Translations under genes and position numbers: made by a program
Shown here: in pieces, positions 8,166 through 53,854 of the stretch
Layout of the letters: every line of letters starts with the position of its first letter
Position numbering within the stretch: the stretch's first letter is position 1
The notes under the pieces: generated by a model
Seen by the model: the letters and a program-made list of their open reading frames with translations, nothing else
The model's database searches: none
Told to the model about the DNA's origin: nothing
Assembly (NCBI GenBank): GCA_031285295.1
Contig: JAITWK010000025.1
Coordinates: 2,967 to 66,966 of the forward strand
DNA length: 64,000 bases
Source of the DNA: Deltaproteobacteria bacterium
GTDB taxonomy: Bacteria; Desulfobacterota; Desulfovibrionia; Desulfovibrionales; Desulfovibrionaceae
Reading direction: 5' to 3'

Positions 8166-8197
8166 AGCGACCTTTGACGGTTTTAAACTTTTTAAAG

Positions 8198-8767: not shown

Positions 8768-8784
8768 CAAAAAATCCTTTTTGG

Positions 8785-8818: not shown

Positions 8819-8843
8819 GCATCGTTTAAATCAATGCCTAAGT

Positions 8844-9370: not shown

Positions 9371-9481
9371 TTATTTCTTGGCAGCGGCCTTGGCATCGCG
9401 AATGCGGGCCTTGAGGCGCTGTTCGCGGCGATGACGTCTGCGGTCGAGTTCTTTTTTGCGTTCGATTTTTTTCTGGGCCAT
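9371..9481 (-). CDS. small highly basic protein (36 aa), below the ORF-track size cut-off
   Basis: My own translation: MAQKKIERKKELDRRRHRREQRLKARIRDAKAAAKK*. AGGAGAATTAATT lies directly upstream of the ATG at 9481. Confidence 0.55.
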   Translation of the reverse strand: MAQKKIERKKELDRRRHRREQRLKARIRDAKAAAKK

Positions 9482-9661
9482 AATTAATTCTCCTAGCCGC
9501 TTAACGGCGGGTATTTCAAGTATGTAATATTCTAACAACCTGATCGACATTAAATATCCACAAGCTGACCTTTTGTAAAGACCCGGGTTGTGCTATGCTG
9601 CAAGGATGATTATTGTATAAGACAGGGCGATTGTTTGCTGTAAGGAATGATAATTTATAAT

Positions 9662-10882: not shown

Positions 10883-10939
10883 ATAATAACATTTTATCAG
10901 GTGCTTGCCTTTTGCAGTTCGGCACCCTAATTGTAATCA

Positions 10940-22493: not shown

Positions 22494-22568
22494 TGGTAGG
22501 CACGAGCAGCTTTGAACTGCTGGCCCCTTCCGTGTCAAGGAAGTGCTCTACCCCTGAGCTACGCGCCT
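22494..22568 (-). tRNA. tRNA-Val (anticodon GAC)
   Basis: Manual cloverleaf of the reverse complement: AGGCGCG TA GCTC AGGGGTA GAGC A CTTCC TTGACAC GGAAG GGGCC AGCAG TTCAAAG CTGCT CGTGCCT A CCA (75 nt, CCA encoded). Confidence 0.93.
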
Positions 22569-22720: not shown

Positions 22721-22796
22721 GGGCGGTTAGCTCAGTTGGTAGAGCATCGGCTTTACACGCCGAGGGTCGGGGGTTCGAGCCCCTCACCGCCCACCA
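22721..22796 (+). tRNA. tRNA-Val (anticodon TAC)
   Basis: Manual cloverleaf: GGGCGGT TA GCTC AGTTGGTA GAGC A TCGGC TTTACAC GCCGA GGGTC GGGGG TTCGAGC CCCTC ACCGCCC A CCA (76 nt). Confidence 0.95.
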
Positions 22797-22881: not shown

Positions 22882-23184
22882 GTGACCTTTCATAGCGGTG
22901 AGGGCGGCAAGTTCCTCATAACAACGGCTAGAGAGGGCAAGCCCCATGTGGAGCGCGTTACGGAAATCAGGCCACCGGAAAACTGTTCCAGCCAGGAACT
23001 TTTCAACGAACCGGCGCGACGCAGTTTGAAGGAATAGTGGCATGACTTTTGCTAATTGTATAACAACATCAAGCATTGAATCCGCTGACAGATTCCTTGA
23101 ATTGAGACTCCACCGGGCTATGAATTTAGCGTTGTTACTATAACCACAACTCGCGCATAAGCGCGTTTCACCATAAAGAGTACC

Positions 23185-24648
23185 ATGCGGCGCACTTATT
23201 TTCTCCTTCCTGGGCTCGGTATGGGTCTGCTATATTGTTCCCTGAACATCGGATTAATCCTTCTCAATGTACGACGTGCGTCAGGAATGCCTGGAACCGG
23301 CAAGGGCGACCCTTCCGCCCTGGTGCATTTTGCCATGGTCGCCCTGGTGGCGCTTGGGCTGTCATTCATTCTTAGAAATGGAATGGGGCGGCTTCGCCCG
23401 CTGACCGTGCTTTTGGGGGTGGCGGCACTTTTTTGCGCGTTCCTGCCTGCAATGCCAACGGAATTGCTCACCGAGCTGGTCAACGGCCGCCCCCCGATAT
23501 TGGCTTTGTTCATGTCCCTGTTCATGCCCGTGGGCTTTTTTCTGTTTTTCCGGGCCGTGCCAAGCGGCAACGAAGCGTTTGCCTTTTCGATGATCCATGT
23601 AGGCAATGAACTTTTGTGGTCGCTGTTCTTTCCCCTGTTCAGCACCATTGCTTCGCAGGTGTCCCTCACGTTTGTCGTGTATGTATACTCTCTGAACTGC
23701 TGGGTGGTTGGACTTGCCGGACTTTGCCTTGCCATAGCCTTTGGCTATGCGGTGCGGGAAACTGCCGCCACATCTGTTCGTACTACGCAGCCCGTATCGA
23801 GCGAGCCTCTCCTGCGGGAAAAATGCACTGTGTTGCTTCTGGCATTCGCGGCAGGCATAGGCGTTTTTGGAATGATGGGCTTCCAAATGGGCTCATTCAT
23901 GCCCAAGGCAGCCATGAACCCGGAACTATTGAGTATTCCCTATTTTATTTTTCTGTTCCTGCTCCCTGTCGCCGGGCATTTTCTGGACACAAGGCCAGAA
24001 AAACTCATGCTGATCTGCATTCCCGGCCTTGCTGGACTATTTTGCCTGAGCCTCGCCTGGCAAAACGGCCTGATTGCCCCGATGAGCATGTATTATCCGT
24101 TCAGTATCGCGCAGCAGATTAGTTTGCTTATCTTCTACACCACAACTGCCAGAATGCTGAAAGGAAAAGCCATTTTCCCCTTCATAATTTCCTTGGGATT
24201 TTGCCTGCATATCGCGCATTTTGGCGGTATGTTCCTGCGCGGACTGGTTCAGGATCTGCCGCATGGAGTGACGGCGGCGTCTTTGCTTCTGCTCGTAGGG
24301 ACTGCGCTGTGCCTGTGGCGTTTCCGCACACAGTGTGCAAAGGAGCCGAATTTGTGGCCCGTGGCACAGCGAAGCACCAATATGGCCGCATTCATTGCGA
24401 AACCAGGAGCAGAATCATCCGCACAGTCGGATTATACAGCCTTTGCTGTGCGTTATAGCCTGAGTGAACGGGAAATCACGGTTATCACCATGCTGGCTCA
24501 GGGTCGCTCCTCTGAAGCTATAGCTGAAGATTTGAAGGTGGCGGACTCCACTATCCGCACCTATATTTCCCGCATTCTGCGGAAAACAGGAACAAAAAAC
24601 CGGGCTGCGCTCATGGAACGCGTCATCATAGAGAAGCAGACGGGCTAA
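23185..24648 (+). CDS. membrane-embedded LuxR/GerE-family transcriptional regulator (about 12 TM segments plus a C-terminal HTH)
   Basis: 487 aa. By eye there are about 12 hydrophobic helices in residues 1-390. The C-terminus LSEREITVITMLAQGRSSEAIAEDLKVADSTIRTYISRILRKTGTKNRAALM is a LuxR-type HTH. Confidence 0.85.
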   Translation: MRRTYFLLPGLGMGLLYCSLNIGLILLNVRRASGMPGTGKGDPSALVHFAMVALVALGLSFILRNGMGRLRPLTVLLGVAALFCAFLPAMPTELLTELVNGRPPILALFMSLFMPVGFFLFFRAVPSGNEAFAFSMIHVGNELLWSLFFPLFSTIASQVSLTFVVYVYSLNCWVVGLAGLCLAIAFGYAVRETAATSVRTTQPVSSEPLLREKCTVLLLAFAAGIGVFGMMGFQMGSFMPKAAMNPELLSIPYFIFLFLLPVAGHFLDTRPEKLMLICIPGLAGLFCLSLAWQNGLIAPMSMYYPFSIAQQISLLIFYTTTARMLKGKAIFPFIISLGFCLHIAHFGGMFLRGLVQDLPHGVTAASLLLLVGTALCLWRFRTQCAKEPNLWPVAQRSTNMAAFIAKPGAESSAQSDYTAFAVRYSLSEREITVITMLAQGRSSEAIAEDLKVADSTIRTYISRILRKTGTKNRAALMERVIIEKQTG

Positions 24649-24706: not shown

Positions 24707-24834
24707 GTCTACAAAAAGTCTACAGACGATTTTGTCTTGTGATTACTGGGCATGCGCCACTTTTGTGGGCAGTTTCTCAAAAAATATTGCCATATATTCC
24801 AACGCTATCTGCACATGTCTACAAGTCGTCTACA
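24707..24834 (+). promoter_or_regulatory. two pairs of phased GTCTACA direct repeats (candidate operator) upstream of the EBP gene
   Basis: GTCTACA occurs at 24707, 24718, 24817 and 24828. Repeats within a pair are 11 bp apart and the pairs are 110 bp apart. The region is an AT-rich intergenic spacer. Confidence 0.6.
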
Positions 24835-24961: not shown

Positions 24962-26290
24962 ATGAATAATGCCTTACCACAATACTCGCCGCAGGTTCTT
25001 TCATCTCTTGCAGAAACCTGCGCCGCTCTCGCCAAGGGAGACTACGGGCGGGCCAAGGAACTGTTTGCTCTGACCGCCGGGCAACAGAATTCCCCGGTTA
25101 TCGCGGAGCTGGCCGAAGCGTTCGGTTTTATGCTGGTCAAAGTGGAAGCCAGGGAGTTTCATCTGGAAAAACTCGCGGAAGATCTTGAAGTTGCATATAA
25201 GGAGCAAAGTCAGTTGCAAAAGACATTGGCCAAGGAAAATAAGCAACTCCGCGAAAATTTACGGAAAGACACGGCCCAGCAACGCATTGTGGGCACAAGC
25301 CCGGTTATGAGGGAGATCATGTCCCAAGCCGAGCGCATCGCCCAGGTGGACGCTACGGTTCTTATTACCGGGGAAACAGGCACCGGCAAAGGTATGCTTG
25401 CCAGAACCCTGCATGACGACGGCGCACGGGCGGCTGGCCCTTTTGTGGCCATCAACTGCGCGGCGATTCCCTCAACCTTGCTTGAAAGTGAACTGTTCGG
25501 CATAGAAAAAGGCGTGGCTTCCGGCGTAACAGCCCGCATGGGGCGTTTCGAGCAGGCCGACGGCGGAAGCATCTTTCTGGATGAAATCGGCGATATGCCG
25601 CTCGAAAGTCAGGCAAAAATCCTGCATGTCATTGAAAACCGCTGTGTGGAACGGATAGGAGGCCGCAAGAGCATACCTGTCAATGTGCGTATCATCGCGG
25701 CGACCCATAGAGACCTTGCCGCCATGTGCGAGGAAAAACTATTCCGTTCGGATCTGTACTATCGCCTGAACGTCATACGCCTGCATGTGCCGGCGTTACG
25801 GGAGCGTCCTGAAGATATACCCGGCCTTGTCCGCTATTTTCTTGAGCGTTGCGGGCGGCGTAACCCCGGCGCGGTATCGGGCATTACCAAAGAGGCTATG
25901 CGGCGCATGATGGCGCATACCTGGCCCGGCAATATCCGGGAACTGGAAAATGAGACGGAACGCGCTGCACTTCTGGCTCAGGGCAGTTCCATCACGCCCC
26001 AGGATCTGTCTTCCATTCTCTCATCCCTGGCACCGCAACCCATGCAGGCCGATGCTCCGGAGTTGCTGCACCCTTCCCGAAAACCCGTGAAAAAAAAGGG
26101 CACTCCCGGAAATGCATCTGCCTCCCTGGTCGCACAGGCCGCGCCTGTTCGCGCACTTGTTGATATGGAAGCGGAAATCGTGCGCCGGGCTTTGGCTCAG
26201 ACAGGCGGCAATAAAAGCCAAACCGCCCGTCTGCTTGGCATCAGCCGGGAAGGGTTACGCAAGATGCTCAAACGCCTTAATATTTCTTAA
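24962..26290 (+). CDS. sigma-54-dependent (NtrC-class AAA+) transcriptional activator without a recognisable sensor domain and with a degenerate GAFTGA loop
   Basis: Walker A GETGTGKG, Walker B GGSIFLDEIGDM, and RSDLYYRLNVIRLHVPALRERPEDI. The C-terminal Fis-type HTH is GGNKSQTARLLGISREGLRKMLKRL. The L1 loop reads ESELFGIEKGVASGVTARMGRFE. Confidence 0.9.
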   Translation: MNNALPQYSPQVLSSLAETCAALAKGDYGRAKELFALTAGQQNSPVIAELAEAFGFMLVKVEAREFHLEKLAEDLEVAYKEQSQLQKTLAKENKQLRENLRKDTAQQRIVGTSPVMREIMSQAERIAQVDATVLITGETGTGKGMLARTLHDDGARAAGPFVAINCAAIPSTLLESELFGIEKGVASGVTARMGRFEQADGGSIFLDEIGDMPLESQAKILHVIENRCVERIGGRKSIPVNVRIIAATHRDLAAMCEEKLFRSDLYYRLNVIRLHVPALRERPEDIPGLVRYFLERCGRRNPGAVSGITKEAMRRMMAHTWPGNIRELENETERAALLAQGSSITPQDLSSILSSLAPQPMQADAPELLHPSRKPVKKKGTPGNASASLVAQAAPVRALVDMEAEIVRRALAQTGGNKSQTARLLGISREGLRKMLKRLNIS

Positions 26291-26317: not shown

Positions 26318-26779
26318 TTATACCGCATGTAACGGATCAAATCTCTCCGTTTGCACAGACGGTTCCGGGGTAATGTCGTCCATCGCCGCCTCGATAGCCC
26401 CCACAATGTACGCCATCAAATCACAGAGGAACACGGGATACACACCTTCTTCCGCGCCTGTAGCACCTGTCACGACAGGAAAATCCAGCCGGTAGCTGTA
26501 ATAGAGAATCCCATCTTCGGAATTTACACCAAAAACACCACCTGCCGTTCCTTCCCATAGATGGTTGCGTAGCATCAGAGCTTCAAGAGCGCCTTGTCCT
26601 GGTGCGCCCAGGGCGGCCTGGATGAACAGGGCACTATATTCGGCCTCGTAAAAAAAAGAGAAGCGTATGCCTTCAATTTCGGCCATCGCGCGACCGTTCT
26701 TATCCAAAATGCAAGCAGAATTTCCCGTGTATTCGCCAAGATACGCAACCTGTGCGGCGGCTTCATCGAAATAGTTCAT
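26318..26779 (-). CDS. T3SS class I (CesT/SycE-like) chaperone, second of a tandem pair
   Basis: 153 aa, small and acidic. MNYFDEAAAQVAYLGEY...FIQAALGAPG...LMLRNHLWEGTAGGVFGVNSEDGILYYSYRL follows the class I chaperone pattern. AAGAGGATGTT precedes ATG 26779. The 5' part of ORF 26318..27091 overlaps the neighbouring chaperone gene in another frame. Confidence 0.65.
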   Translation of the reverse strand: MNYFDEAAAQVAYLGEYTGNSACILDKNGRAMAEIEGIRFSFFYEAEYSALFIQAALGAPGQGALEALMLRNHLWEGTAGGVFGVNSEDGILYYSYRLDFPVVTGATGAEEGVYPVFLCDLMAYIVGAIEAAMDDITPEPSVQTERFDPLHAV

Positions 26780-26789
26780 AACATCCTCT

Positions 26790-27224
26790 TTAAACCCATA
26801 CTGCGGCGGCGGAAATGGTTTCTTTCGGGGCAAGGCGGCTCTGCCAGTACTGCGCCAGTCCGGCCTGCTGCGCGATCTTTTCAATGAATCCCTGTGCGAC
26901 TTCCCGATCCGGCGAAAATCGACGGGAAAGGCAAAGCAGACCGCTTTCCGCATCCAGTCCCAGAATGCCGCCGCCTGTCCCTGCCCAGGCATAGTTTCCC
27001 TGCATAAAATCGCACAGGATTTCCTCGCGTTTCGCATCCGCCGGCAGTGCGCCGATACAGGCGCAGGAGACCAGTTCCTCAGTTTCTTCACTGAAGTTGA
27101 AGGTGAACAGGGAACCCAGAATTTCGGCGGACACAGCGCCCTCCATGCCGAGATGGAGGGCAGGAGTCGCCATATGGTCGGATAAGGCCTTCAACAGTGT
27201 ATTGGTATGTTCTCTGGCAGTCAC
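26790..27224 (-). CDS. T3SS class I (CesT/SycE-like) chaperone
   Basis: 144 aa. LLKALSDHMATPALHL...LVSCACIGALPADAKREEILCDFMQGNYAWAGTGGGILGLDAESGLLCLSRRF follows the typical chaperone pattern (IG.LP, N..W....G..LGLD...G.L.L). Confidence 0.7.
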   Translation of the reverse strand: MTAREHTNTLLKALSDHMATPALHLGMEGAVSAEILGSLFTFNFSEETEELVSCACIGALPADAKREEILCDFMQGNYAWAGTGGGILGLDAESGLLCLSRRFSPDREVAQGFIEKIAQQAGLAQYWQSRLAPKETISAAAVWV

Positions 27225-27235
27225 AGTTGTCTCCT

Positions 27236-29296
27236 TTATTCTGCAACAGACGCTGCGGGTGCGGCACTCTGCGGCGTCAGGGTATAGCTGTAGCCTGGAG
27301 TAGAAGCAAAGGCCGGCGTCATGGAACCATTATCGTGTACGGTAAGCAGCACTTCCATTTCGCACCGTACAAGTGATTTCCCGCTGTCCAGCAGGCACGG
27401 CGTGATGTCTGCCGCAAAATTGGCATTAAGGCGTGTTATATGATCCGGTCTTTCTTCCGCAATGGCCTTGATGGAATAGACCGTTTCGCCCTTATCGTTG
27501 TGGCCATGCAATGCGATGTTGAACTCGGTCATACCGGGCTGAGGCAGGAGAATGCCGGAGAAGGCAAGTGCCTCACCCTGCGCTTTTGCGGTTATTTCAC
27601 CGGGTATGCTCTGGTTTGCCAGTGACATAAGGGCTGTCGCCACACGAGAATTTTTATCAGCCAGTTGAATAACAGCATCCATCGCCGCCAAATCCGAACT
27701 GTGATGGAATGTCGCGCCGAGGCTGCCCTCCTGAAAATTCTGGGGAATCTTCTCACCCGGCGCAAAGCTATGCCTGCCAATTTTGTATGTGGTGCGCAGA
27801 GCATCGACAATAAAGGTGTCCACTTTGTGGGCACTATCAATATTGTCGAGCCGGTATTGCAACCCGGCGAGCATGAGCTCTTGCGCTTCGTTTGAGAGCG
27901 TGCCTTCCGCTTTCAGAACACCCTGCCCGGAATACGGCGTAATCGTGGAAAGCGTGCCCAGGCCGCCCATTTCCTCACGGGTGAGAATCACTTCGTTGCC
28001 GATGCGCATCTCCGGGTGATCACCGTGGGCTTTCAGGGTATCTACCTGTTTTGCAAGCCATGCCGAGAATGTCGGCAAATCCTCAAGCTGGCTGATAACG
28101 GCTTCCATATTGGCAACCATCTGCTTAATGCCGCCGGCATCGGAAAAAGGAGAACCCTGCTCCATTGTCTGAATGGCCCGGTTCAGCATTGCCTGCGCCT
28201 GATCCTCAGTAATGGGTTTCTGGCAGAGAGTCATATATTCATCGGCAGTAGAATTGCGAATCCACCCCTGCACTCCCTGATAAAATTCCTTCACGTCTGT
28301 GGGGATGCGCTCGCGGTTGTTCTGGCCTTCAATAGCGAGCAGACCGGCGCGCTGCCTCAGGGAGGTAGTGAAGTTCATGGCGTGCTGGAAGATATCCTTG
28401 GCATTGCCGAAAAAGCGCTTAAAGCCTTTCCAGGCGGCAGAGGCCGAGCTGTCGTGATGCACCGTGCCGCTGCCCTTAAAAGAAATGCCCCGGCAGCCGT
28501 TGGGTTCCATCTTGACAAAGAGCATACGCGTATCCCCTGTTCCCTGCGGACCGCCTGCGGGGGCTTCGGAATCCCTGGGCAGCCTTGCGAACAGAACGGT
28601 TTTGCGGCTGTTGGGTGTTTCCACGTTGCGTATATCCACACCCCGCGATTTGAAGGCATCTCCAAGATGCTGGTAGTCCTTCATGTGGCTTGAGGAACGT
28701 CCGTAGGAATTGGCCTTCTCCAGAAAGGACTGAAGCAAGCCCTGGGGATCTTCCACAAACATGGCCCCTTCCCTGTACAGGGCCGGAGCATTGCCGCCAG
28801 AGGACTGCGCGGCCTTGGCGGAACCGAGAGCCTGCAAATACCACATCAGCTTGGCAACTTCCTTCTTATCAGCCCGTTCAGGATGACCGCCCTCCATGAT
28901 TGTGTCGAAAAGCTGCTTGCCCTCGGTGACGTAGTTCTGGATTTTCTGCGCGACATCAGGCCCTTTCACTCCCCTAGTGGGCATAAGCGCCACGGTGGCC
29001 TGGGAACCTTCGCCGATGCTGATCGGGATCACACCCGGTTGTGGGGGATTAGCGCGAATTTGCGTTGCCAGAGTTGTGAACTTGTCCGAGGTATCATTAT
29101 GTGCCAACTCCCCCCTGAGCACGGCTGGTGAAGCGTTTGGGAAACGCTGTTGGGCTTTCGCCAGAGTGTCCGCCGGGTTGGGGAGCAGGTGCCCGTACCT
29201 GAGTTCCTGAACCTGAGCTTCGTTTGCATTGGCAGGGTCGTTAAGCAGTCCGGCCGGAGCGTTCATAGCATTGCCGCTTATAGGTAGAGTAGACAT
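27236..29296 (-). CDS. candidate T3SS effector or secreted protein (686 aa), function unknown
   Basis: AGGAGGCATCT precedes ATG 29296 (MSTLPISGNAMNAPAG...). The N-terminus is Ser/Thr/Asn/Pro-rich with no signal peptide and no TM segment. Two class I chaperone genes follow, and a sigma-54 promoter lies upstream. Confidence 0.6.
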   Translation of the reverse strand: MSTLPISGNAMNAPAGLLNDPANANEAQVQELRYGHLLPNPADTLAKAQQRFPNASPAVLRGELAHNDTSDKFTTLATQIRANPPQPGVIPISIGEGSQATVALMPTRGVKGPDVAQKIQNYVTEGKQLFDTIMEGGHPERADKKEVAKLMWYLQALGSAKAAQSSGGNAPALYREGAMFVEDPQGLLQSFLEKANSYGRSSSHMKDYQHLGDAFKSRGVDIRNVETPNSRKTVLFARLPRDSEAPAGGPQGTGDTRMLFVKMEPNGCRGISFKGSGTVHHDSSASAAWKGFKRFFGNAKDIFQHAMNFTTSLRQRAGLLAIEGQNNRERIPTDVKEFYQGVQGWIRNSTADEYMTLCQKPITEDQAQAMLNRAIQTMEQGSPFSDAGGIKQMVANMEAVISQLEDLPTFSAWLAKQVDTLKAHGDHPEMRIGNEVILTREEMGGLGTLSTITPYSGQGVLKAEGTLSNEAQELMLAGLQYRLDNIDSAHKVDTFIVDALRTTYKIGRHSFAPGEKIPQNFQEGSLGATFHHSSDLAAMDAVIQLADKNSRVATALMSLANQSIPGEITAKAQGEALAFSGILLPQPGMTEFNIALHGHNDKGETVYSIKAIAEERPDHITRLNANFAADITPCLLDSGKSLVRCEMEVLLTVHDNGSMTPAFASTPGYSYTLTPQSAAPAASVAE

Positions 29297-29334
29297 AGAT
29301 GCCTCCTGGGTATCAGTGTTGATGCCTAAGGTAG

Positions 29335-29350
29335 AGCAAGGAATATGCCA
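29335..29350 (-). promoter_or_regulatory. sigma-54 (-24/-12) promoter
   Basis: The minus strand reads TGGCATattccTTGCT against the consensus TGGCACG-N4-TTGCW. GG and GC have the exact spacing. It lies 39 nt upstream of ATG 29296. Confidence 0.8.
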
Positions 29351-29485
29351 TAGGGGGCATCGTGTTGCCGTACAAGGGGCAGAGAGCACCCGGTATGAAC
29401 GTCAGCCTATAGGCAAGGCTTGCGTAGTCGGCAGTTAGACTGATGCGCGGATATCATCGGCAACAAAGTGGACAGGCTGTAACGC

Positions 29486-30835
29486 TCAAAACGTGAACGC
29501 CAGGCCAAGCGTCAGAAGATGTTGATCATAGGTATAGAGATCAGAGCTGGAGTTGTTGTTCGTATACTGCCAGCCCATCTCAAGCTGGACGCTCTCGGCA
29601 ATCTGTTTGATAACCATTGCGGACGCCCGCCATTGCGTATCTTTCCGCTTTGCATCGTCAAGAATTGTGGCTCCGCCTTTATAATCTTCGTTATGCCATG
29701 CGCCGCTGAGAATAAGTTCCGTTTCCCATGGCAGGTTCAGAAAGAGAAAAACGCCCGGTTCAATCCCGGAAAAGCTATACCGACGTTCATCGGTAGCACT
29801 CATATAACCCTTAACGCCGGCCATCAGGCTGTGCTTCGCCTCACCGAAAAACCAACGAGCATACGGGCCACCCCAGGCGTATGTGCCGCTGCGGTCTCTG
29901 ACCGCAATGTCCTCGCGGTGCTCAATGCCACCTTGTCCGATAAGATGCAGATTGTCCCGTGCGGCAAAGACCAATGATGCTTCGCTTCCATACAGAGCCA
30001 CGGATTTTTCCTCATTTTCCAGCAACAGTTCCGTTTTTAGGCGGACTTCAGCCATAAGAGAATTCTCAAGATAACGCAGACCAACGGCAGCTCTGCCGAA
30101 GGTCATATCCCGGCGCGGCGTAGTTTCATTGTACCAGCGCTGATATCCGGCCACATCACCCACCAGCCACCAGGGCGAATCCGCCGAGGCTCGCCAGCCC
30201 ATATCAATCACGCCATGCAGGTAGCTGCCCATTGACTCCCGCTCGGAACTCTCCCGGTCAAGATAGATAGGCAGTCTGCCAACCATAACGTCGCGCCCGG
30301 CGGGGCCGGTGGTCATATTGCTGTCGTAGATCATACCGCCCGCAAGGCGTCCTTTGACTCTGAAGCTATCGACCCGCTGTTCCATACTCGCAAGCGCCTT
30401 GCCCATATCGCCTTCGGCAATGGAAGGATCAAGCCGTTTCGCCTCGGCCAGTTCCGCTTTTGCCGCTTCATTCTGTCCCATGGTCAGCAGCAAATGGGCG
30501 AGTTCCAGGCGCAGTATGGCATTCTCCGGCAAAGTTTCGATAAGACGTTCGTAAGCCATGCGGGAATGGTTGTATTTCCCGGCGAGCTTGGCGGAACGCG
30601 CCAAAGCCAGGTTGACCTCGAAATCATCCGGGGTTTCGCGCAACAGGTTCAGATACAGCGCGAAGGCTCCGGCATGATCCCCGGACTGCATCAAAGATGC
30701 GGCGTCTGCCTTGCCGGAAGACAGGGATGCCGCTACCGCCGCGCTGGCAGAAAAAGACCAGAGCGGCGGCAGCAGGGTGATAGTCAGAAACAGAACCAGA
30801 ACGGCATGGCGGAAGAGTGGCATGGTATTCTTCAT
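29486..30835 (-). CDS. outer-membrane protein with N-terminal TPR and C-terminal beta-barrel, Slam/DUF560-like (type XI secretion candidate)
   Basis: 449 aa. Signal peptide, then TPR-like helices (GAFALYLNLLRETPDDFEVNLALARSA..., MGQNEAAKAELAEAKRLDP). About 290 aa of alternating beta-strand pattern follows (GGMIYDSNMTTGP...). It ends in the OMP-type LTLGLAFTF. Confidence 0.5.
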   Translation of the reverse strand: MKNTMPLFRHAVLVLFLTITLLPPLWSFSASAAVAASLSSGKADAASLMQSGDHAGAFALYLNLLRETPDDFEVNLALARSAKLAGKYNHSRMAYERLIETLPENAILRLELAHLLLTMGQNEAAKAELAEAKRLDPSIAEGDMGKALASMEQRVDSFRVKGRLAGGMIYDSNMTTGPAGRDVMVGRLPIYLDRESSERESMGSYLHGVIDMGWRASADSPWWLVGDVAGYQRWYNETTPRRDMTFGRAAVGLRYLENSLMAEVRLKTELLLENEEKSVALYGSEASLVFAARDNLHLIGQGGIEHREDIAVRDRSGTYAWGGPYARWFFGEAKHSLMAGVKGYMSATDERRYSFSGIEPGVFLFLNLPWETELILSGAWHNEDYKGGATILDDAKRKDTQWRASAMVIKQIAESVQLEMGWQYTNNNSSSDLYTYDQHLLTLGLAFTF

Positions 30836-30837
30836 GG

Positions 30838-32043: not shown

Positions 32044-32062
32044 TCGTAAATTGCTCAGGTTG

Positions 32063-32878: not shown

Positions 32879-32884
32879 AAAAGC

Positions 32885-32905
32885 GGGTATGCAATTTGCA
32901 TTCCC
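32885..32905. promoter_or_regulatory. 21-bp near-perfect palindrome giving sigma-54-like GG-N10-GC on both strands
   Basis: GGGTATGCAATTTGCATTCCC, with 9 of 10 arm positions pairing. The plus strand gives GG(32886-7)...TTTGCA(32895-32900). The minus strand gives GGAATGCAAATTGCA. It lies in the 56-bp divergent spacer. Confidence 0.45.
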
Positions 32906-32934
32906 GGAAAAGATATAAACGAGGGGAAAAACAT

Positions 32935-33264
32935 ATGGATATAACTGTCTCGCAAGATGGCCGCTTCACGCTTGTTGCCTTACGCGGCGTTCTCGATGCC
33001 CTTACCGCGCCAGAGCTTGAGGAAAAAAATCAGCAAATTGTTGATAACGGCGCAACCATTGTCATTCTTGATCTTTCAGCCATGGAGTTCATCAGTTCAG
33101 CGGGTCTGCGTGTGTTTCTATCGCTGGCCAAAGCGCTGCGAAAAACGGGAGGAGAAATTCGTTTTGCAGGCTTGCAGGAGGCCATACGCGAAGTGTTCGC
33201 CATTTCCGGCTTTACAAAAATGTTCGCCGTTTTTCCTGATGCTGCTACAGCGGCCAAGGATTAG
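32935..33264 (+). CDS. STAS-domain anti-sigma-factor antagonist (SpoIIAA/RsbV/BtrV-like)
   Basis: MDITVSQDGRFTLVALRGVLDALTAPELEE...LDLSAMEFISSAGLRVFL carries the conserved phosphorylatable Ser context. Confidence 0.88.
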   Translation: MDITVSQDGRFTLVALRGVLDALTAPELEEKNQQIVDNGATIVILDLSAMEFISSAGLRVFLSLAKALRKTGGEIRFAGLQEAIREVFAISGFTKMFAVFPDAATAAKD

Positions 33265-33282: not shown

Positions 33283-33771
33283 GTGCAAACGCTTTCATGC
33301 ATAACCACAGCGGAAGACATCCGCCTGGTGGAAAACTCAATCCTTGCCATTGCCGATGAGCGGGCGGTCGATTCGCTTTCCCGTGCCCGGATGCAACTGG
33401 TTCTTGATGAGATGCTTACCAATATCCGTTTCCACAGTTACCCGGAAGGTCCGGGCTCTATTCATATCATTATCTATCCGCAGGTCGGTGACGGAGACTT
33501 CATTCTCCATTGTGTCATCCAGGATTGGGGGCCTGAGTTCAATCCCCTGGTCGATAGCCCAAAGCCAGAATTGTGGGAAAATATTGAAGAAAGGCCCATC
33601 GGTGGTCTGGGACTACATCTGGTTCACAATATGCGCTGCGGTCTCAGATATGAGCGGGTACGGGAAGGTGCGCCATCTGCGGGCCGGAACGAGCTTACAC
33701 TCAGCTTTCCCCTGCGCTGCGGGCCGGGGGGATTACCGGAGAAATTCACTCCGCCGGGTAGCTCCTCCTGA
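33283..33771 (+). CDS. anti-sigma-factor-type Ser/Thr kinase (RsbW/SpoIIAB/BtrW-like, HATPase_c)
   Basis: N-box LVLDEMLTNIRFHSY, G1 IQDWGPEFNP and G2 RPIGGLGLHLV. GTG start preceded by GGGGGAG. Confidence 0.85.
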   Translation: MQTLSCITTAEDIRLVENSILAIADERAVDSLSRARMQLVLDEMLTNIRFHSYPEGPGSIHIIIYPQVGDGDFILHCVIQDWGPEFNPLVDSPKPELWENIEERPIGGLGLHLVHNMRCGLRYERVREGAPSAGRNELTLSFPLRCGPGGLPEKFTPPGSSS

Positions 33772-35747
33772 TGCTGCGCTCCATAAGAACCCGATCTATC
33801 AGAACCAGACTGGCCTTTGCTGGCGCTATTCTGGTTCTTTTGACTGCCGGAAGTCTTATGTGGTTCGCGCACAAGGACACCGTTACCGCCTTGCGTACCC
33901 TAGAGCGCCAAGGGCTCAACAATGTGATCTATCTTCTGGAACGCGAGCTGACCGCCGCGCATAGTGACGCCCTGAAGGCCAAAATCACGGCTGTGGAAAA
34001 TATAAAAACCATGCTCCGCCAGACGGGGGAGGCGGCATGCGCCATTCTGGGCGAAACCGCCGACATGGAAGAATCTCAAAGACGTGAGTTACTCTCCCTC
34101 TGGGCGGATACTCCGGCTGTTCCGGATCTTCATATCCGTTTTTTTCAGATCGATGAGGACGCAGAGGGGTTACACCCATCGTGGCCTCGGGGGGCTACGG
34201 GGGGTGCAGCCCCTCGGCATGAATACAAGGCTCTGCCCGAACCAGCACAAAAAGCCATACCATCCCTTCTGGCAGGCAGCGCCGGTGAATTCATTCCTGA
34301 TGGTGAAGCTCTGGCCTGGATAACCAAACATGACAACATGGTTGTGCTGTGTTCCTACTCTCTCAAAGATGCGGTTGACGCGGCGAAAGCAAATCTTGCG
34401 GTTGTGGCGGAGCGTTTCAAAGAATTATTGCGGCAGGTTGACATACAGGAAACCGGGTTCGCCGCCGTACTGGATGCTTCCGGCCGTATTGTGGCAGGGC
34501 CTGAGCATGCGGTCATTCCGGACAAACTGTGTGAAACACTTCTCGCTGGAACATTTTCCGGCGCAGCGCGGCGCGTCATGGTTCTCCGGGAGGAAGGTGA
34601 AAGCGATCAGGCCAAAAGTGCATCACCTAGCGAAACCCTTTATCTTCTCGGCTATTTTCGTCCGCTGCAATGGCATATCGTGCTGTCCGCCCCTTTGGAT
34701 GAATTGGAAGCTCCCGCCTACGCGCTTGTGGACGGGCAACTGCGAATAACCTTTGCCGTGCTAGCGGCCGGACTCCTGCTGGGCTTTATCATCGCAGCCC
34801 GCATCGCAAAGCCGATCCGCCGTTTGGCAAACCTTGCCAGAGAGTTGCCGGAGCAGGACATTTTAAGTCTTGATACTGCCGCTTTGACCAGGAAACTGCC
34901 CTTACGGCGCAAGGATGAGATCGGCGAACTGGCTCAGGCGTTTGGGCACATGGCTAAAGAATTGCAAACAAACGTCACACGTTTGGTCGAATCCACAGCC
35001 GTGCGCCAACGCATGGAAAAAGAGCTGCAAGTTGCCCGCGACATACAGTATGGCATTCTGCCAACGGTTTTTCCTGTAGGTACAGCGGTTGATCTGTATG
35101 CCGCCATGCGAACCGCCAGAGAAGTTGGCGGGGATCTCTATGACTTTTTCTTCCTCGATGAGCGCCGTCTCTGCTTCGCCATCGGCGATGTGTCGGACAA
35201 GAGTATTCCGGCGGCACTCTTTATGAGCATGACCGTGACCCTGCTCCGGGTCGCCATGCGTGACGAAGGCCTGTCGCCGGAAGCGGCTATGGCCCGCGTG
35301 AATGACGCCTTGGCGGCTGACAACCCCCGCATCATGTTTGTCACTCTGTGCATCGGCGTGCTTGATATGGTTTCAGGCGAGGTAGTGTACAGCAGTGCCG
35401 GGCATATGCCCCCTGTGCTGATAGGCGAGAGCGGCGCATGTTCCCTTCCGCGCTCCGGTGATATGGTGGCCGGTGTTTTTGAGGGAGACAGCTTTGTCAG
35501 CATACGGCACGTTATGCAGCCCGGCGAGACTCTTTTTCTCTATACCGACGGCGTTTCCGAGGCCATGAATGCCGCGAGGGAACAATATGGAGAGAAACGC
35601 CTTTTAGCGCATCTGACGGATTGCTACGGCATACCCTCTACCGAAACGGTCGGTTCCGTCTTCCGAACCGTGGATGAACACGCGGGCGACGAAGAGCAGT
35701 CCGATGATATAGCCATCCTGACAATACGCTACCTTGGTAAACGCTGA
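33771..35747 (+). CDS. membrane sensor PP2C (SpoIIE/RsbU/BtrU-like) phosphatase with a periplasmic domain and HAMP
   Basis: TM1 (LAFAGAILVLLTAGSLMWFA), about 290 aa extracytoplasmic, then TM2. HAMP region (RRKDEIGELAQAFGHMAKEL). The PP2C part includes ARDIQYGILP, REVGGDLYDFFFLDERRLCFAIGDVSDKSIPAALFMS, YSSAGHMPP, LYTDGVSEA and DDIAILTIR. Confidence 0.9.
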   Translation: MLRSIRTRSIRTRLAFAGAILVLLTAGSLMWFAHKDTVTALRTLERQGLNNVIYLLERELTAAHSDALKAKITAVENIKTMLRQTGEAACAILGETADMEESQRRELLSLWADTPAVPDLHIRFFQIDEDAEGLHPSWPRGATGGAAPRHEYKALPEPAQKAIPSLLAGSAGEFIPDGEALAWITKHDNMVVLCSYSLKDAVDAAKANLAVVAERFKELLRQVDIQETGFAAVLDASGRIVAGPEHAVIPDKLCETLLAGTFSGAARRVMVLREEGESDQAKSASPSETLYLLGYFRPLQWHIVLSAPLDELEAPAYALVDGQLRITFAVLAAGLLLGFIIAARIAKPIRRLANLARELPEQDILSLDTAALTRKLPLRRKDEIGELAQAFGHMAKELQTNVTRLVESTAVRQRMEKELQVARDIQYGILPTVFPVGTAVDLYAAMRTAREVGGDLYDFFFLDERRLCFAIGDVSDKSIPAALFMSMTVTLLRVAMRDEGLSPEAAMARVNDALAADNPRIMFVTLCIGVLDMVSGEVVYSSAGHMPPVLIGESGACSLPRSGDMVAGVFEGDSFVSIRHVMQPGETLFLYTDGVSEAMNAAREQYGEKRLLAHLTDCYGIPSTETVGSVFRTVDEHAGDEEQSDDIAILTIRYLGKR

Positions 35748-35865: not shown

Positions 35866-36002
35866 TGTAAATATAGTTGCCGGGTGTGCAAAGCGGCATG
35901 CCTACTAAGTGTGCATAATCCCCCGACCTCTTTCCCGTCCATTTTTCTCCTCAAGTTCGCCTGAATCGCTGTTTTTCTTTATGTGGCAACGAAAAATTCG
36001 GG

Positions 36003-36018
36003 TGGCACAGTAAGTGCT
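36003..36018 (+). promoter_or_regulatory. sigma-54 (-24/-12) promoter of the main T3SS gene train
   Basis: TGGCACagtaaGTGCT with exact GG/GC spacing, 45 nt upstream of ATG 36064. Confidence 0.75.
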
Positions 36019-36063
36019 ATTCGTCACTGTAAACGACACCGAAACCATTCGGGGAGGCAGACA

Positions 36064-45360: not shown

Positions 45361-45594
45361 ATGTTGGATGTAAACGCTCAGGATTTTGATGTCAGCGCAG
45401 CTTTGGCGCGCGATCCCGATGGCTACGCTCTGCGCACTATCAAGGACAGGCTTGAAACCATGAAATCCGGCTTGAAACGAACCATGGACAAGGGACTGCC
45501 CGCCGATCAGTTTTCCGTGGCAAACAATTTGCATAAGTCATGTCAGACGGCGCAGGATCTGGTGGAGCAGTTCTGGTCCCAGCCGCGAAAATAA
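45361..45594 (+). CDS. YscE-like needle co-chaperone candidate
   Basis: 77 aa and helical. LKRTMDKGLPADQFSVANNLHKSCQTA resembles my recollection of YscE (LKKDMMRGGDAKQYQVWQRESKALESA). It sits between sctD and sctF, as in ysc. Confidence 0.55.
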   Translation: MLDVNAQDFDVSAALARDPDGYALRTIKDRLETMKSGLKRTMDKGLPADQFSVANNLHKSCQTAQDLVEQFWSQPRK

Positions 45595-53827: not shown

Positions 53828-53838
53828 ATACCGGAAGG

Positions 53839-53854
53839 TGGCACGCTTCCTGCT
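53839..53854 (+). promoter_or_regulatory. sigma-54 (-24/-12) promoter in the sctS-chaperone spacer
   Basis: TGGCACGcttcCTGCT with exact spacing and a 7/7 match to the -24 box TGGCACG. It lies 65 nt upstream of ATG 53920. Confidence 0.8.

What the first reader, a model, noticed from the sequence alone, without database searches (positions are those of the whole stretch)
25511..25528. The island's enhancer-binding protein has GVASGV instead of the GAFTGA sigma-54 contact loop and no sensor domain
The DNA ggc gtg gct tcc ggc gta (residues 184-189) gives ESELFGIEKGVASGVTARMGRFE. Canonical EBPs read ESELFGHEKGAFTGA-x5-GRFE. The Phe and Thr that contact sigma-54 region I are replaced by Ala and Ser, and the loop is one residue shorter. 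Known EBPs lacking GAFTGA (TyrR, Rhodobacter NtrC/HupR) do not activate sigma-54. Yet three strong -24/-12 promoters surround this gene. So either a variant loop still engages sigma-54, or another EBP drives those promoters and this protein acts differently. The N-terminal ~105 aa has no REC, PAS or GAF features. As with HrpR/S or PspF, that predicts control by a protein partner rather than by phosphorylation.
Basis: partly seen in the sequence, partly recalled or inferred. Interest (0 to 1): 0.7.

Follow-up and report, generated by a model that had tools for sequence, protein, structure and literature searches.

The report
T3SS sigma-54 activator with variant contact loop
The type III secretion island's only sigma-54 activator carries GVASGV in place of the supposedly essential GAFTGA loop; this is the conserved signature of a large, little-noticed activator clade, first noted in Desulfovibrio vulgaris in 2015, that still sits next to sigma-54 promoters and is often linked to partner-switching genes.

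Summary
ORF 24962-26290 (+, 442 aa) is a bacterial enhancer-binding protein (bEBP). It has a Sigma54_activat AAA+ domain, an AAA lid and a Fis-type HTH. Nucleotides 25511-25528 encode GVASGV at the GAFTGA position, and the descending arm of the loop is one residue shorter.

It is not an error. 118 of the 120 best homologs (45-72% identity) carry GVA[ST]G[VI] with the same deletion.

It is not new in kind. Kazakov et al. 2015 reported GVATGV in DVUA0100 of D. vulgaris pDV1 and predicted it to activate the sigma-54 promoters of type III secretion system (T3SS) genes. The window protein is 46% identical to DVUA0100 and lies in a syntenic T3SS island.

I add three points:
- The loop marks a cross-phylum clade. 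All 125 variant EBPs in hand have the short spacer.
- Variant EBP genes lie next to -24/-12 promoters about as often as canonical ones do. The window has 5 sites at 15 bits or more against 0.9 expected.
- A partner-switching module (STAS, RsbW-like kinase, PP2C phosphatase) lies within 5 kb of 35/125 variant EBPs and 0/73 canonical ones. The window's own module is about 6.6 kb away.

Best reading: a working sigma-54 activator with an aliphatic pore loop. No experiment has tested this.

The parts
24962..26290 (+). Gene for the 442-aa enhancer-binding protein (DVUA0100-type, variant L1 loop)
   Evidence: ORF. Pfam Sigma54_activat E=7e-65, AAA_lid_14 and HTH_8. 46% identical to DVUA0100 over the coiled coil plus AAA+ domain, and 49% over the HTH. 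100% match to a protein of a Deltaproteobacteria MAG.
25511..25528 (+). L1 (sigma-54 contact / pore) loop tip GVASGV, residues 184-189, replacing GAFTGA
   Evidence: G184, V185, A186 and G188 are invariant and V189 is at least 90% conserved in the family. 118/120 homologs carry GVA[ST]G[VI].
24962..25285 (+). N-terminal module, residues 1-108: helical hairpin plus 60-residue helix (coiled-coil linker). No known domain.
   Evidence: No Pfam hit. AF2 helices at 10-24, 28-39 and 45-104 with pLDDT about 86-98. Conserved positions C20, Y28, F35, LAE50-52, M57 and EARE62-65.
25286..26041 (+). AAA+ core and lid, residues 109-360: Walker A GETGTGK 137-143, Walker B D207-E208, N165, conserved arginines R262 and R268
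   Evidence: Invariant columns. The AF2 model superposes on FleQ, ZraR, NtrC1 and FlrC AAA+ domains at 1.5-1.9 A with TM 0.93-0.96.
26159..26275 (+). C-terminal Fis-type helix-turn-helix, residues 400-438
   Evidence: Pfam HTH_8 E=8e-11. 49% identical to the DVUA0100 HTH region.
24707..24834 (+). Two pairs of GTCTACA direct repeats (11-bp spacing) upstream of the EBP gene. Candidate operator that controls EBP expression.
   Evidence: These are the only four GTCTACA copies in the window on either strand.
23036..23054 (+). Sigma-54 promoter-like site (18.0 bits), 131 nt upstream of the multi-TM LuxR/GerE regulator gene 23185-24648
29334..29352 (-). Sigma-54 promoter-like site (19.6 bits) upstream of the putative effector (about 27236-29299) and two CesT chaperone genes (26790-27224 and about 26318-26779)
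36001..36019 (+). Sigma-54 promoter-like site (15.1 bits) upstream of the small ORF (ATG 36064), SycD-like chaperone, translocon, sctC and sctD operon. Positional counterpart of the DVUA203 promoter of pDV1.
45516..45534 (+). Weaker sigma-54 promoter-like site (12.8 bits) after sctD. The sequence is conserved in relative L209.
   Evidence: L209 position 1818 reads GGTGGCAAACAATTTGCAA against CGTGGCAAACAATTTGCAT in the window.
53837..53855 (+). Sigma-54 promoter-like site (19.7 bits) upstream of CesT 53920-54393 and the 468-aa protein 54415-55821
57583..57601 (+). Sigma-54 promoter-like site (13.9 bits), 156 nt upstream of the sctW (HrpJ/TyeA) gene 57757-58869. It resembles the DVUA0106 promoter (TCTGGCCCG...).
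32935..33264 (+). STAS-domain protein (anti-sigma-factor-antagonist type) of the island's partner-switching module
   Evidence: Pfam STAS E=3e-21.
33283..33771 (+). RsbW/SpoIIAB-like HATPase_c_2 protein (serine kinase / anti-factor). Candidate anti-activator.
   Evidence: Pfam HATPase_c_2 E=6e-15.
33771..35747 (+). Membrane Cache-HAMP-SpoIIE (PP2C) phosphatase. Candidate sensor input and counterpart of DVUA0099.
   Evidence: Pfam. 35% identical to the pDV1 SpoIIE gene that lies just downstream of DVUA0100.

Best explanation
The protein is a member of the DVUA0100-type branch of bacterial enhancer-binding proteins (bEBPs) and is the dedicated transcriptional activator of this Desulfovibrionaceae T3SS island.

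Shown here:
- It has a complete bEBP AAA+ core, lid and Fis-type HTH.
- The L1 loop GVA[ST]GV, with a one-residue deletion, is a strictly conserved signature of a whole clade. So is an Ile in place of the usual His/Tyr three residues before the loop.
- The island carries several strong -24/-12 promoters in front of effector/chaperone, translocon, gatekeeper and regulator genes. Two of them are at positions that match the predicted D. vulgaris T3SS promoters.

Inferred mechanism: the protein binds upstream sites through its HTH, forms an ATP-hydrolysing hexamer and engages sigma-54 region I with its L1 loops. The aromatic pocket formed in NtrC1 by the GAFTGA Phe and a nearby Tyr would be rebuilt from aliphatic side chains. 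In effect this is a volume swap from A-F-T-G-A to V-A-S-G-V, plus I181.

Inferred control, with lower confidence: the protein has no ligand-binding domain. Its activity would be set through the conserved N-terminal helical hairpin and long coiled coil, together with the island's partner-switching module. In that module the Cache-HAMP-PP2C sensor dephosphorylates STAS. STAS then titrates the RsbW-like protein, which would otherwise hold the EBP inactive. This is functionally like PspA-PspF, HrpV/HrpG-HrpS or NifL-NifA. EBP expression itself is probably controlled from the GTCTACA repeats upstream of the gene.
For: Domain content and intact ATPase motifs. The AAA+ model superposes on solved bEBPs at about 1.5 A.

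Loop conservation: 118/120 homologs, invariant G184, V185, A186, G188 and I181, and 125/125 variant EBPs with the 4-residue spacer.

Precedent and orthology: DVUA0100 has GVATGV and is the predicted T3SS regulator with sigma-54 promoters (PMC4641369). It is 46% identical to the window protein, and the pDV1 T3SS cluster is syntenic. The closest relatives with genomic context (71% and 57% identity) also lie inside T3SS clusters.

Promoters in the window: 5 sites at 15 bits or more against 0.91 expected, and 3 at 18 bits or more against 0.08. The fifth site at 15 bits or more, 55886, lies inside sctT and is probably coincidental. The 45516 site is conserved in L209. There is no other EBP in the window.

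Clade-wide link to sigma-54: within 3 kb of variant EBP genes there are 34 sites at 14 bits or more against 8.0 expected. Canonical EBP loci show 17 against 6.4. The sites lie 80-450 nt downstream on the same strand or 100-500 nt upstream and divergent. About 23 of 29 EBP-to-rsbW gaps carry a GG-N10-GC element by my reading of the listed best sites. There is a 20-bit promoter beside a Myxococcota variant EBP.

Partner switching: the module is confirmed in the window. It lies adjacent to the EBP in Halodesulfovibrio, in two Desulfovibrio genomes and in an Acidobacteriota MAG. A SpoIIE phosphatase lies just downstream of DVUA0100, separated only by a 124-aa hypothetical ORF. Counts within 5 kb are 35/125 for variant EBPs against 0/73 for canonical ones, p=2.4e-8. 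With 3-kb flanks on both sides they are 10/20 against 0/44, p=1.2e-6.
Against: There is no experimental evidence anywhere that a GVA[ST]GV loop binds or remodels sigma-54. The only paper that mentions DVUA0100 is computational.

In PspF, replacing any one of A84, F85, T86, G87 or A88 with the bulky cross-linker residue pBpa abolishes sigma-54 binding and open-complex formation while ATPase activity is kept (PMC3467059 Table 1). In NtrC1, F216 and T217 form the pockets that grip region I (PMC12322047). Judged one substitution at a time, this loop should therefore be dead.

I could not find the D. vulgaris upstream-site motif GCCAAC-N3-GTTGGC enriched in the window (7 sites against 5.07 expected), nor any shared palindrome upstream of the promoters. 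Direct binding near these promoters is therefore unsupported here.

Desulfovibrionaceae encode dozens of canonical EBPs, 37 in D. vulgaris, and the two closest relatives with context each have a canonical EBP gene 3-4 kb away.

In the window the partner-switching genes are about 6.6-7.5 kb from the EBP gene. In the common metagenomic cassette the module lies downstream of a sigma-54 promoter, so it could be an output of the EBP rather than its input. Four variant-EBP loci with 10-kb flanks (L003, L086, L087 from the protein search; L009 from the genome scan) have no module nearby.
Confidence: 0.68

Rival explanations
1. The variant loop has lost sigma-54 contact. The protein would act like TyrR or Rhodobacter NtrC, as a sigma-70-type activator, a repressor, or a DNA-bound scaffold. 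The island's -24/-12 promoters would be fired by a canonical EBP encoded elsewhere in the genome.
For: F to A and the flanking A to V changes hit positions where substitutions abolish sigma-54 binding in PspF. Phe and Thr form the region I pockets in NtrC1. No upstream-site motif was found near the promoters. Canonical EBP genes lie 3-4 kb from the variant gene in L208 and L209. D. vulgaris has 37 EBPs.
Against: The loop is invariant across a deep clade instead of decaying. There is no other EBP in 64 kb. Variant EBP genes from several phyla lie immediately next to -24/-12 promoters in the geometry typical of an EBP and its target, at a density like that of canonical EBP loci. Kazakov et al. 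found conserved candidate binding sites for DVUA0100 upstream of the T3SS sigma-54 promoters in three Desulfovibrio genomes.
Confidence: 0.14
2. The protein works only in a mixed hexamer with a canonical GAFTGA EBP, as in HrpR/HrpS or FleQ/FleT. The partner would supply the sigma-54-contacting loops.
For: Mixed-ring activators are known (HrpR/HrpS; my own knowledge). PspF heterohexamers tolerate some defective L1 loops. L208 and L209 have canonical EBP genes nearby.
Against: There is no paired EBP gene in the window, beside DVUA0100, or in Halodesulfovibrio or the Desulfovibrio loci. By regex, 0 of 125 variant EBP loci screened held a second EBP. L087 has one 7.5 kb away by Pfam annotation. 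The neighbouring EBP in L209 faces its own divergent metabolic genes.
Confidence: 0.07
3. The partner-switching module does not regulate the EBP. It would control T3SS secretion activity post-transcriptionally, as reported for Bordetella BtrU/BtrW/BtrV, or an unrelated sigma factor. The EBP would be regulated only at the level of its own expression, through the GTCTACA repeats.
For: T3SS-linked partner switching that acts on secretion is known in Bordetella (my own knowledge). In the window the module is about 6.6-7.5 kb from the EBP gene. In the common cassette the module lies downstream of a sigma-54 promoter and so looks like a target. The GTCTACA repeats show a separate transcriptional input.
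Against: The module tracks the EBP clade even where no T3SS genes lie within 10 kb (L002, L085, and L006 in Acidobacteriota). The STAS, rsbW-like and EBP genes are co-oriented with 19-nt and 46-nt gaps in Halodesulfovibrio. Enrichment is 35/125 against 0/73. No sigma-70-family sigma factor gene was seen in the annotated neighbourhoods.
Confidence: 0.35
4. Sequencing or assembly error, or a decaying pseudogene.
For: None beyond the unusual motif.
Against: The reading frame is intact and full-length. The same hexapeptide and the same deletion occur in 118/120 homologs and in at least 120 metagenomic stretches.
Confidence: 0.01

Closest known systems
DVUA0100 of Desulfovibrio (Nitratidesulfovibrio) vulgaris Hildenborough plasmid pDV1, the predicted T3SS regulator (Kazakov et al. 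2015, PMC4641369)
   Same: Variant L1 loop (GVATGV there, GVASGV here) with the same one-residue deletion and the same FGI context. Shared LAEAFGxMLVKVEAREF coiled-coil segment. 46% identity over the coiled coil plus AAA+ domain and 49% over the HTH. Both are encoded in a syntenic T3SS cluster with -24/-12 promoters in front of the translocon (DVUA203) and gatekeeper (DVUA0106) operons. A Cache-HAMP-SpoIIE phosphatase gene is present in both clusters.
   Different: DVUA0100 is 575 aa with a longer, low-complexity N-terminus, and it sits at the end of the sctU operon. The window gene stands alone behind its own GTCTACA-repeat region. Ser replaces Thr in the loop. The published DVUA0100 site motif GCCAAC-N3-GTTGGC is not enriched in the window. 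Neither protein has been tested experimentally.
Canonical bEBPs with solved structures (PspF, NtrC1, ZraR, FleQ, FlrC, NifA)
   Same: Same AAA+ fold (1.5-2 A, 42-48% identity). Same Walker A, Walker B, Asn-switch and arginine motifs, L2 region, lid and Fis-type HTH.
   Different: The L1 tip is GVASGV, not GAFTGA, and is one residue shorter. The residue equivalent to NtrC1 Y211 (His in most EBPs) is an invariant Ile. The N-terminus is a helical hairpin plus coiled coil rather than REC, PAS, GAF or V4R.
Sensor-less EBPs held in check by protein partners: PspF-PspA, HrpS-HrpV-HrpG, NifA-NifL, FleQ-FleN
   Same: No ligand-binding or receiver domain, and candidate protein regulators encoded in the regulated gene cluster. 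HrpS-HrpV-HrpG is also a T3SS circuit with an anti-activator and an anti-anti-activator. NifL is a GHKL (HATPase_c)-containing anti-activator.
   Different: The candidate partners here are a classical RsbW/STAS/PP2C partner-switching set. I found no report of such a set regulating an EBP. The interaction is inferred from gene neighbourhood only.
EBP-like proteins that do not use sigma-54 (TyrR, Rhodobacter capsulatus NtrC, HupR)
   Same: They depart from GAFTGA.
   Different: Those proteins act at sigma-70 promoters (my own knowledge; I did not examine their loops here). The variant here is invariant over a deep clade and its genes lie beside -24/-12 promoters.
T3SS-associated partner-switching systems (Bordetella BtrU/BtrV/BtrW; Chlamydia RsbU/RsbV/RsbW)
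   Same: A PP2C phosphatase, a STAS protein and an RsbW-like kinase are encoded with, or act on, T3SS-related programmes. In Chlamydia, perturbing RsbV2 lowers sigma-54/sigma-28-regulated late proteins (PMC11619594).
   Different: Their proposed targets are secretion activity or sigma-66, not an EBP. No variant-loop EBP is involved.

Membership tests
Bacterial enhancer-binding proteins (sigma-54 activators, Pfam PF00158 clade) | Sigma54_activat AAA+ domain with Walker A, Walker B, arginine fingers and lid | tested here: met
   PF00158 E=7e-65 over 109-274 and AAA_lid_14. GETGTGK, D207-E208, N165, R262 and R268 are invariant. 1.5 A superposition on FleQ, ZraR and FlrC.
Bacterial enhancer-binding proteins (sigma-54 activators, Pfam PF00158 clade) | GAFTGA (or a tolerated near-variant) at the tip of loop L1 | tested here: not met
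   GVASGV with a one-residue deletion. Three of six positions are changed, including the Phe. A 2025 survey treats GAFTGA as invariant and filters on it (PMC12316311).
Bacterial enhancer-binding proteins (sigma-54 activators, Pfam PF00158 clade) | C-terminal Fis-type HTH DNA-binding domain | tested here: met
   HTH_8 E=8e-11 at residues 400-438.
Bacterial enhancer-binding proteins (sigma-54 activators, Pfam PF00158 clade) | Gene lies next to -24/-12 (sigma-54) promoters | tested here: met
   The window has 5 sites at 15 bits or more against 0.91 expected. Clade-wide enrichment and typical geometry.
Bacterial enhancer-binding proteins (sigma-54 activators, Pfam PF00158 clade) | ATP-dependent remodelling of the sigma-54 holoenzyme closed complex | not testable with these tools
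   Needs biochemistry or genetics. No published test for any member of the variant clade.
DVUA0100-type T3SS regulators (variant-loop clade) | FGI-x2-GVA[ST]G[VI] loop with a 4-residue spacer to G.[FLIVM][EQ] | tested here: met
DVUA0100-type T3SS regulators (variant-loop clade) | Conserved N-terminal coiled-coil segment LAEAFGxMLVKVEAREF ahead of the AAA+ domain | tested here: met
   Aligned with DVUA0100 residues 108-124. At least 90% conserved in the family.
DVUA0100-type T3SS regulators (variant-loop clade) | Encoded within a non-flagellar T3SS gene cluster that has sigma-54 promoters | tested here: met
   sctC, sctD, sctJ, sctN, sctQ, sctR, sctT, sctU, sctW, sctV and CesT chaperones in the window. 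The same holds in pDV1, Halodesulfovibrio, L208 and L209.
DVUA0100-type T3SS regulators (variant-loop clade) | Upstream activating sites GCCAAC-N3-GTTGGC near the target promoters | tested here: inconclusive
   7 matches at 2 mismatches or fewer against 5.07 expected. One 2-mismatch site lies 211 nt upstream of the 53837 promoter. No shared palindrome above the null.
Sensor-less, partner-regulated EBPs (PspF / HrpS type) | No N-terminal regulatory domain | tested here: inconclusive
   No REC, PAS, GAF or other Pfam domain, but a conserved 108-residue helical module is present.
Sensor-less, partner-regulated EBPs (PspF / HrpS type) | A dedicated anti-activator protein binds the EBP | not testable with these tools
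   Only gene-neighbourhood evidence for the RsbW-like / STAS / PP2C genes.
Non-sigma-54 EBP-like regulators (TyrR / R. capsulatus NtrC type) | L1 motif lost or degenerate, and targets are sigma-70 promoters | tested here: not met
   The loop is invariant rather than degenerate. The neighbouring promoters are of the -24/-12 type.

The most novel reading that the evidence does not exclude
A deep, cross-phylum clade of enhancer-binding proteins (Desulfovibrionales, Acidobacteriota, Myxococcota and many metagenomic lineages) has replaced the aromatic GAFTGA pore loop with a shorter, all-aliphatic GVA[ST]GV loop and still fires sigma-54 promoters. This would show that the 'essential' Phe is dispensable in a re-engineered pore. 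In addition, this clade would be wired to RsbW/STAS/PP2C partner-switching modules that directly gate the activator. That would be the first case of partner switching controlling sigma-54-dependent transcription, here deciding when a T3SS is expressed.
Probability: 0.27. Interest if true: 0.78.

Novelty: new member of a known kind. Interest (0 to 1): 0.5.

Why it matters
GAFTGA is treated as the defining and invariant feature of sigma-54 activators, and a 2025 survey discards proteins that lack it. A large clade with a different, conserved loop is therefore dropped from such sigma-54 regulon surveys.

If the clade does activate sigma-54, it is a natural experiment on how the AAA+ pore grips sigma-54 region I. 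The test is simple: swap the loops between this protein and PspF or NtrC1.

The protein is also the likely master switch of T3SS islands in Desulfovibrionaceae, a family that includes gut-associated Desulfovibrio and Lawsonia. The enrichment of partner-switching genes next to this clade points to an undescribed route from an extracytoplasmic Cache sensor to sigma-54 transcription.

Tried and rejected
1. The published DVUA0100 site motif GCCAAC-N3-GTTGGC is not enriched in the window. Only weak matches lie upstream of the promoters.

2. De novo search for a shared palindrome upstream of seven promoter sites: the best motif occurred in 3 regions, no better than random regions.

3. My impression that the N-terminus is HAMP-like ('AELAEAFGFM' resembles HAMP helix AS2, the second amphipathic helix) is not supported. 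Pfam gives no HAMP hit even at E<=5 on six family N-termini. AF2 shows a three-helix arrangement.

4. The genome-contig scan with the family alignment chose generic peptide patterns and returned mostly canonical EBPs. I reused them as controls, and the scan did yield two cross-phylum variants, L006 and L009.

5. A 112-aa ORF 'X' between the EBP and rsbW genes in L006, and the 124-aa DORF807 after DVUA0100, have no Pfam hit, have biased composition and are conserved only among close relatives. They are probably the promoter/leader region rather than genes.

6. Monophyly of the variant loop: a neighbour-joining tree with the loop masked gave 6 state changes, with the largest pure variant clade holding 94 of 136 sequences. 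This is inconclusive, because the alignment is short and the method crude.

7. A survey of neighbouring ORFs in the cassette loci was abandoned. High-GC spurious ORFs dominated the set.

8. The tblastn search against plasmids did not rank pDV1 among the top 15 listed records, so I fetched it by accession instead.

9. GTCTACA repeats were not found upstream of EBP genes in eight related loci.
Full report
**1. What is there**

ORF 24962-26290 (+) encodes a 442-aa protein. Nucleotides 25511-25528 read GGC GTG GCT TCC GGC GTA, which is G184-V-A-S-G-V189 within ESELFGIEKGVASGVTARMGRFE.

Pfam finds Sigma54_activat (109-274, E=7e-65), AAA_lid_14 (280-360) and HTH_8 (400-438), and nothing in residues 1-108. 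NCBIfam gives only sub-threshold matches to NifA, NtrC, PspF and similar models, so the protein fits no curated equivalog.

HMMER alignments to ZraR, NifA and NtrC1 place GVASGV on GAFTGA and need a one-residue gap at the start of the descending arm. The AlphaFold2 model was built on 84 family sequences and has mean pLDDT 91. It shows helices at 10-24 and 28-39, a 60-residue helix at 45-104, then a standard AAA+ core, lid and HTH. The core superposes on FleQ, ZraR, NtrC1 and FlrC at 1.5-1.9 A.

**2. Surroundings**

The window is a non-flagellar T3SS island. It encodes:
- sctC 41936-43777, sctD and sctJ;
- sctN, sctQ, sctR, sctT, sctU, sctW and sctV;
- four CesT-type chaperones and SycD-type TPR chaperones.

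Two tRNA-Val genes lie at its left edge. A phmmer search of all window ORFs finds no second EBP.

I built a weight matrix from the 88 D. vulgaris sigma-54 promoters listed by Kazakov et al.. It gives these sites:

| Site | Strand | Bits | Downstream gene(s) |
|---|---|---|---|
| 23036 | + | 18.0 | LuxR-type membrane regulator |
| 29334-29352 | - | 19.6 | effector plus two CesT genes |
| 36001 | + | 15.1 | small ORF, SycD, translocon, sctC, sctD |
| 53837 | + | 19.7 | CesT plus 468-aa protein |
| 55886 | + | 16.0 | inside sctT; probably coincidental |
| 57583 | + | 13.9 | sctW |
| 45516 | + | 12.8 | genes after sctD |

Sites at 15 bits or more number 5 against 0.91 expected. Sites at 18 bits or more number 3 against 0.08 expected.

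**3. The loop is a family signature and is already in the literature**

The 120 best homologs are 45-72% identical, align over their full length, and where named come mostly from Desulfovibrionales. Of these, 118 have GVA[ST]G[VI] with a 4-residue spacer. In an 84-sequence alignment I181, G184, V185, A186 and G188 are invariant, as are the Walker A, Walker B, Asn-switch and arginine residues.

A full-text search for the hexapeptides found Kazakov et al. 2015 (PMC4641369). That paper reports the following:
- DVUA0100 of D. vulgaris Hildenborough pDV1 'possesses three substitutions (GVATGV)'.
- The authors' regulon reconstruction suggests that it still activates sigma-54 promoters.
- DVUA0100 is assigned as the T3SS regulator.
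- It is noted to have a long conserved N-terminal region of unknown function.

I fetched pDV1. DVUA0100 is 46% identical to the window protein from the LAEAFGxMLVKVEAREF segment through the AAA+ domain, and 49% identical over the HTH. The T3SS cluster is syntenic.

Two window promoters match the predicted D. vulgaris promoters in position:
- 36001 corresponds to DVUA203.
- 57583 (TCTGGCCCG...) corresponds to DVUA0106 (TCTGGCCCGCTTTTCGCAA).

No other paper in the library mentions DVUA0100, so the function remains a prediction.

**4. How far the variant extends**

A genome scan aimed at the family returned mostly canonical EBPs. It also returned a GAF-EBP from an Acidobacteriota MAG (L006) and one from a Myxococcota MAG (L009), both with FGI-x2-GVATGV and the short spacer.

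All 125 variant EBPs in hand have the 4-residue spacer, against 5 residues in 73 canonical ones. About three quarters have a longer N-terminus, consistent with a GAF domain as in L006 and L009.

A crude neighbour-joining tree with the loop masked groups 94 of 136 variants in one pure clade but needs 6 state changes. Single origin is therefore unresolved.

**5. Do variant-loop EBPs work with sigma-54?**

I can only test this comparatively.
- Within 3 kb of variant EBP genes there are 34 sites at 14 bits or more against 8.0 expected, and 16 sites at 16 bits or more against 3.8 expected.
- The 73 canonical EBP loci give 17 against 6.4, and 12 against 3.0.
- The sites are not scattered. They lie 80-450 nt downstream on the same strand, or 100-500 nt upstream and divergent.
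- In 29 EBP-to-rsbW gaps, the best site is usually a TGGCA-N7-TTGC element at a constant offset. By my reading of the listed sites, about 23 of 29 have the GG-N10-GC frame. Eleven of 29 score 10 bits or more with the D. vulgaris matrix.
- A 20-bit promoter follows the Myxococcota gene.
- The 45516 site of the window is conserved almost base for base in relative L209.

Together with the strict conservation of the loop and of the ATPase machinery, this favours a functional sigma-54 activator.

Single-substitution data argue against it. In PspF, replacing any one of A84, F85, T86, G87 or A88 with the cross-linker residue pBpa abolishes sigma-54 binding while ATPase activity is kept (PMC3467059). 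In NtrC1, F216, T217 and Y211 form the pockets that grip sigma-54 region I (PMC12322047).

In the variant clade the Tyr/His position is an invariant Ile, Phe is replaced by Ala, and both flanking Ala residues are replaced by Val. I read this as a coordinated volume swap that rebuilds a hydrophobic pocket without an aromatic residue. That is inference, not a result.

**6. Regulation**

The window encodes three adjacent co-oriented genes (at most 18 nt apart; the last two overlap by 1 nt), about 6.6-7.5 kb from the EBP gene:
- a STAS protein at 32935-33264 (E=3e-21);
- an RsbW-like HATPase_c_2 protein at 33283-33771 (E=6e-15);
- a membrane Cache-HAMP-SpoIIE phosphatase at 33771-35747.

The same kinds of genes accompany the EBP elsewhere:
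- On pDV1, a Cache-HAMP-SpoIIE gene lies just downstream of DVUA0100, separated only by the 124-aa hypothetical ORF.
- In Halodesulfovibrio the STAS, RsbW-like and EBP genes form a co-oriented row with 19-nt and 46-nt gaps, beside a divergent SpoIIE gene and the T3SS cluster.
- Two Desulfovibrio genomes have an RsbW-HAMP-SpoIIE fusion divergent from the EBP gene, plus SpoIIE and STAS downstream, with no T3SS genes in 10 kb.
- The Acidobacteriota locus has EBP, then RsbW-like, STAS and GAF-SpoIIE.

I seeded jackhmmer profiles with the window proteins and searched all loci. STAS or PP2C genes lie within 5 kb of 35/125 variant EBPs and 0/73 canonical EBPs (p=2.4e-8). With at least 3 kb on both sides the counts are 10/20 and 0/44 (p=1.2e-6). 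I found no paper that links partner switching to an EBP.

The direction of the link is open. In the common cassette the module lies behind a sigma-54 promoter, so it is at least a target. It may also feed back on the EBP, as pspA does on PspF. Four variant-EBP loci with 10-kb flanks (L003, L086, L087, L009) have no module nearby.

Separately, all four GTCTACA heptamers of the window lie upstream of the EBP gene, as two pairs with 11-bp spacing. This points to a transcriptional input to the gene itself.

**7. Verdict**

The protein is a new member (Ser variant, 46% identical) of the DVUA0100-type T3SS activators described computationally in 2015.

My best explanation is a functional sigma-54 activator with a re-engineered aliphatic pore loop (confidence about 0.68). 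Partner-switching control is a plausible but unproven regulatory layer.

The rivals are loss of sigma-54 contact with trans-activation by another EBP, an obligate mixed hexamer, and a partner-switching module unrelated to the EBP. None of these can be excluded without biochemistry or genetics.

The broader points appear not to have been described, and they are the part worth following up. They are the size and spread of the variant-loop clade, its constant one-residue deletion, its normal association with -24/-12 promoters, and its specific association with partner-switching genes.

Noticed in passing
window 24707-24834: All four GTCTACA heptamers of the 64-kb window (both strands) lie in the 314-bp region upstream of the EBP gene. 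They form two pairs 11 bp apart (24707/24718 and 24817/24828), and the pairs are 110 bp apart. This looks like an operator for a regulator of the EBP gene. The repeats are absent upstream of EBP genes in eight related loci.
   Followed up: partly
window 22494-22568 (-) and 22721-22796 (+): Two divergent tRNA-Val genes (anticodons GAC and TAC) lie just left of the first T3SS-associated gene. This may be the integration boundary of the island.
   Followed up: no
window 23036-24648: A 487-aa multi-pass membrane protein with a C-terminal LuxR/GerE HTH (23185-24648) lies directly upstream of the EBP gene and has an 18-bit sigma-54 promoter at 23036. It may be a second-tier regulator, or the protein that binds the GTCTACA repeats.
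   Followed up: no
window 53837-55860: A CesT chaperone gene (53920-54393) and a 468-aa protein with no Pfam hit (54415-55821) are inserted between the sctR/sctS genes and sctT. They have their own 19.7-bit sigma-54 promoter and a GC-rich hairpin after the stop codon. In relative L209 the variant EBP gene occupies this same slot after sctS.
   Followed up: partly
window 55886-55904: A perfect TGGCAC-N5-TTGC (16.0 bits) lies in codons 5-10 of sctT. It is probably coincidental or an internal promoter, and I did not count it as a target.
   Followed up: partly
window 26318-29352 (-): A roughly 687-aa protein with no Pfam hit (about 27236-29299) is followed by two CesT-family chaperone genes and preceded by the strongest nearby sigma-54 site (19.6 bits). 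It is a likely effector operon. The maximal ORF start (29389) overlaps the promoter, so the real start is probably the ATG at 29299.
   Followed up: partly
window 29486-32907: A minus-strand row of genes for a TPR protein (449 aa), a FecR-domain protein (401 aa) and a 271-aa protein with no Pfam hit lies divergent to the STAS gene. The 57-bp gap between them holds overlapping weak -24/-12-like elements on both strands (32883-32901 at 9.5 bits; 32889-32907 at 9.2 bits).
   Followed up: no
L089, L094, L149, L156, L206 and about 20 further metagenomic loci: There is a recurrent cassette: variant-loop (GAF-)EBP, then a gap of about 200 nt with a TGGCA-N7-TTGC element, then rsbW-like, STAS and PP2C genes. 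Many of these elements read TGGCAG rather than TGGCAC, which the D. vulgaris-trained matrix penalises.
   Followed up: partly
L208 159-230 and L209 14352-15749: The two closest relatives with genomic context each have a canonical GAFTGA EBP gene 3-4 kb from the variant EBP gene. In L209 it faces enoyl-CoA hydratase and acetyl-CoA hydrolase genes, so it is probably an unrelated regulator.
   Followed up: partly
L003 and L086 (Desulfonatronum), about 2000-11350: The GVATGV EBPs of Desulfonatronum lie divergent to genes for a cupin, an FAD-binding protein and an Ech/Coo-like membrane hydrogenase. There are no T3SS or partner-switching genes nearby, and no site at 12.5 bits or more in the intergenic region. 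So the clade has targets other than T3SS.
   Followed up: no
L009 9790-9808: A 20-bit sigma-54 promoter lies between a Myxococcota GAF-EBP with GVATGV and a DnaJ-like gene.
   Followed up: no
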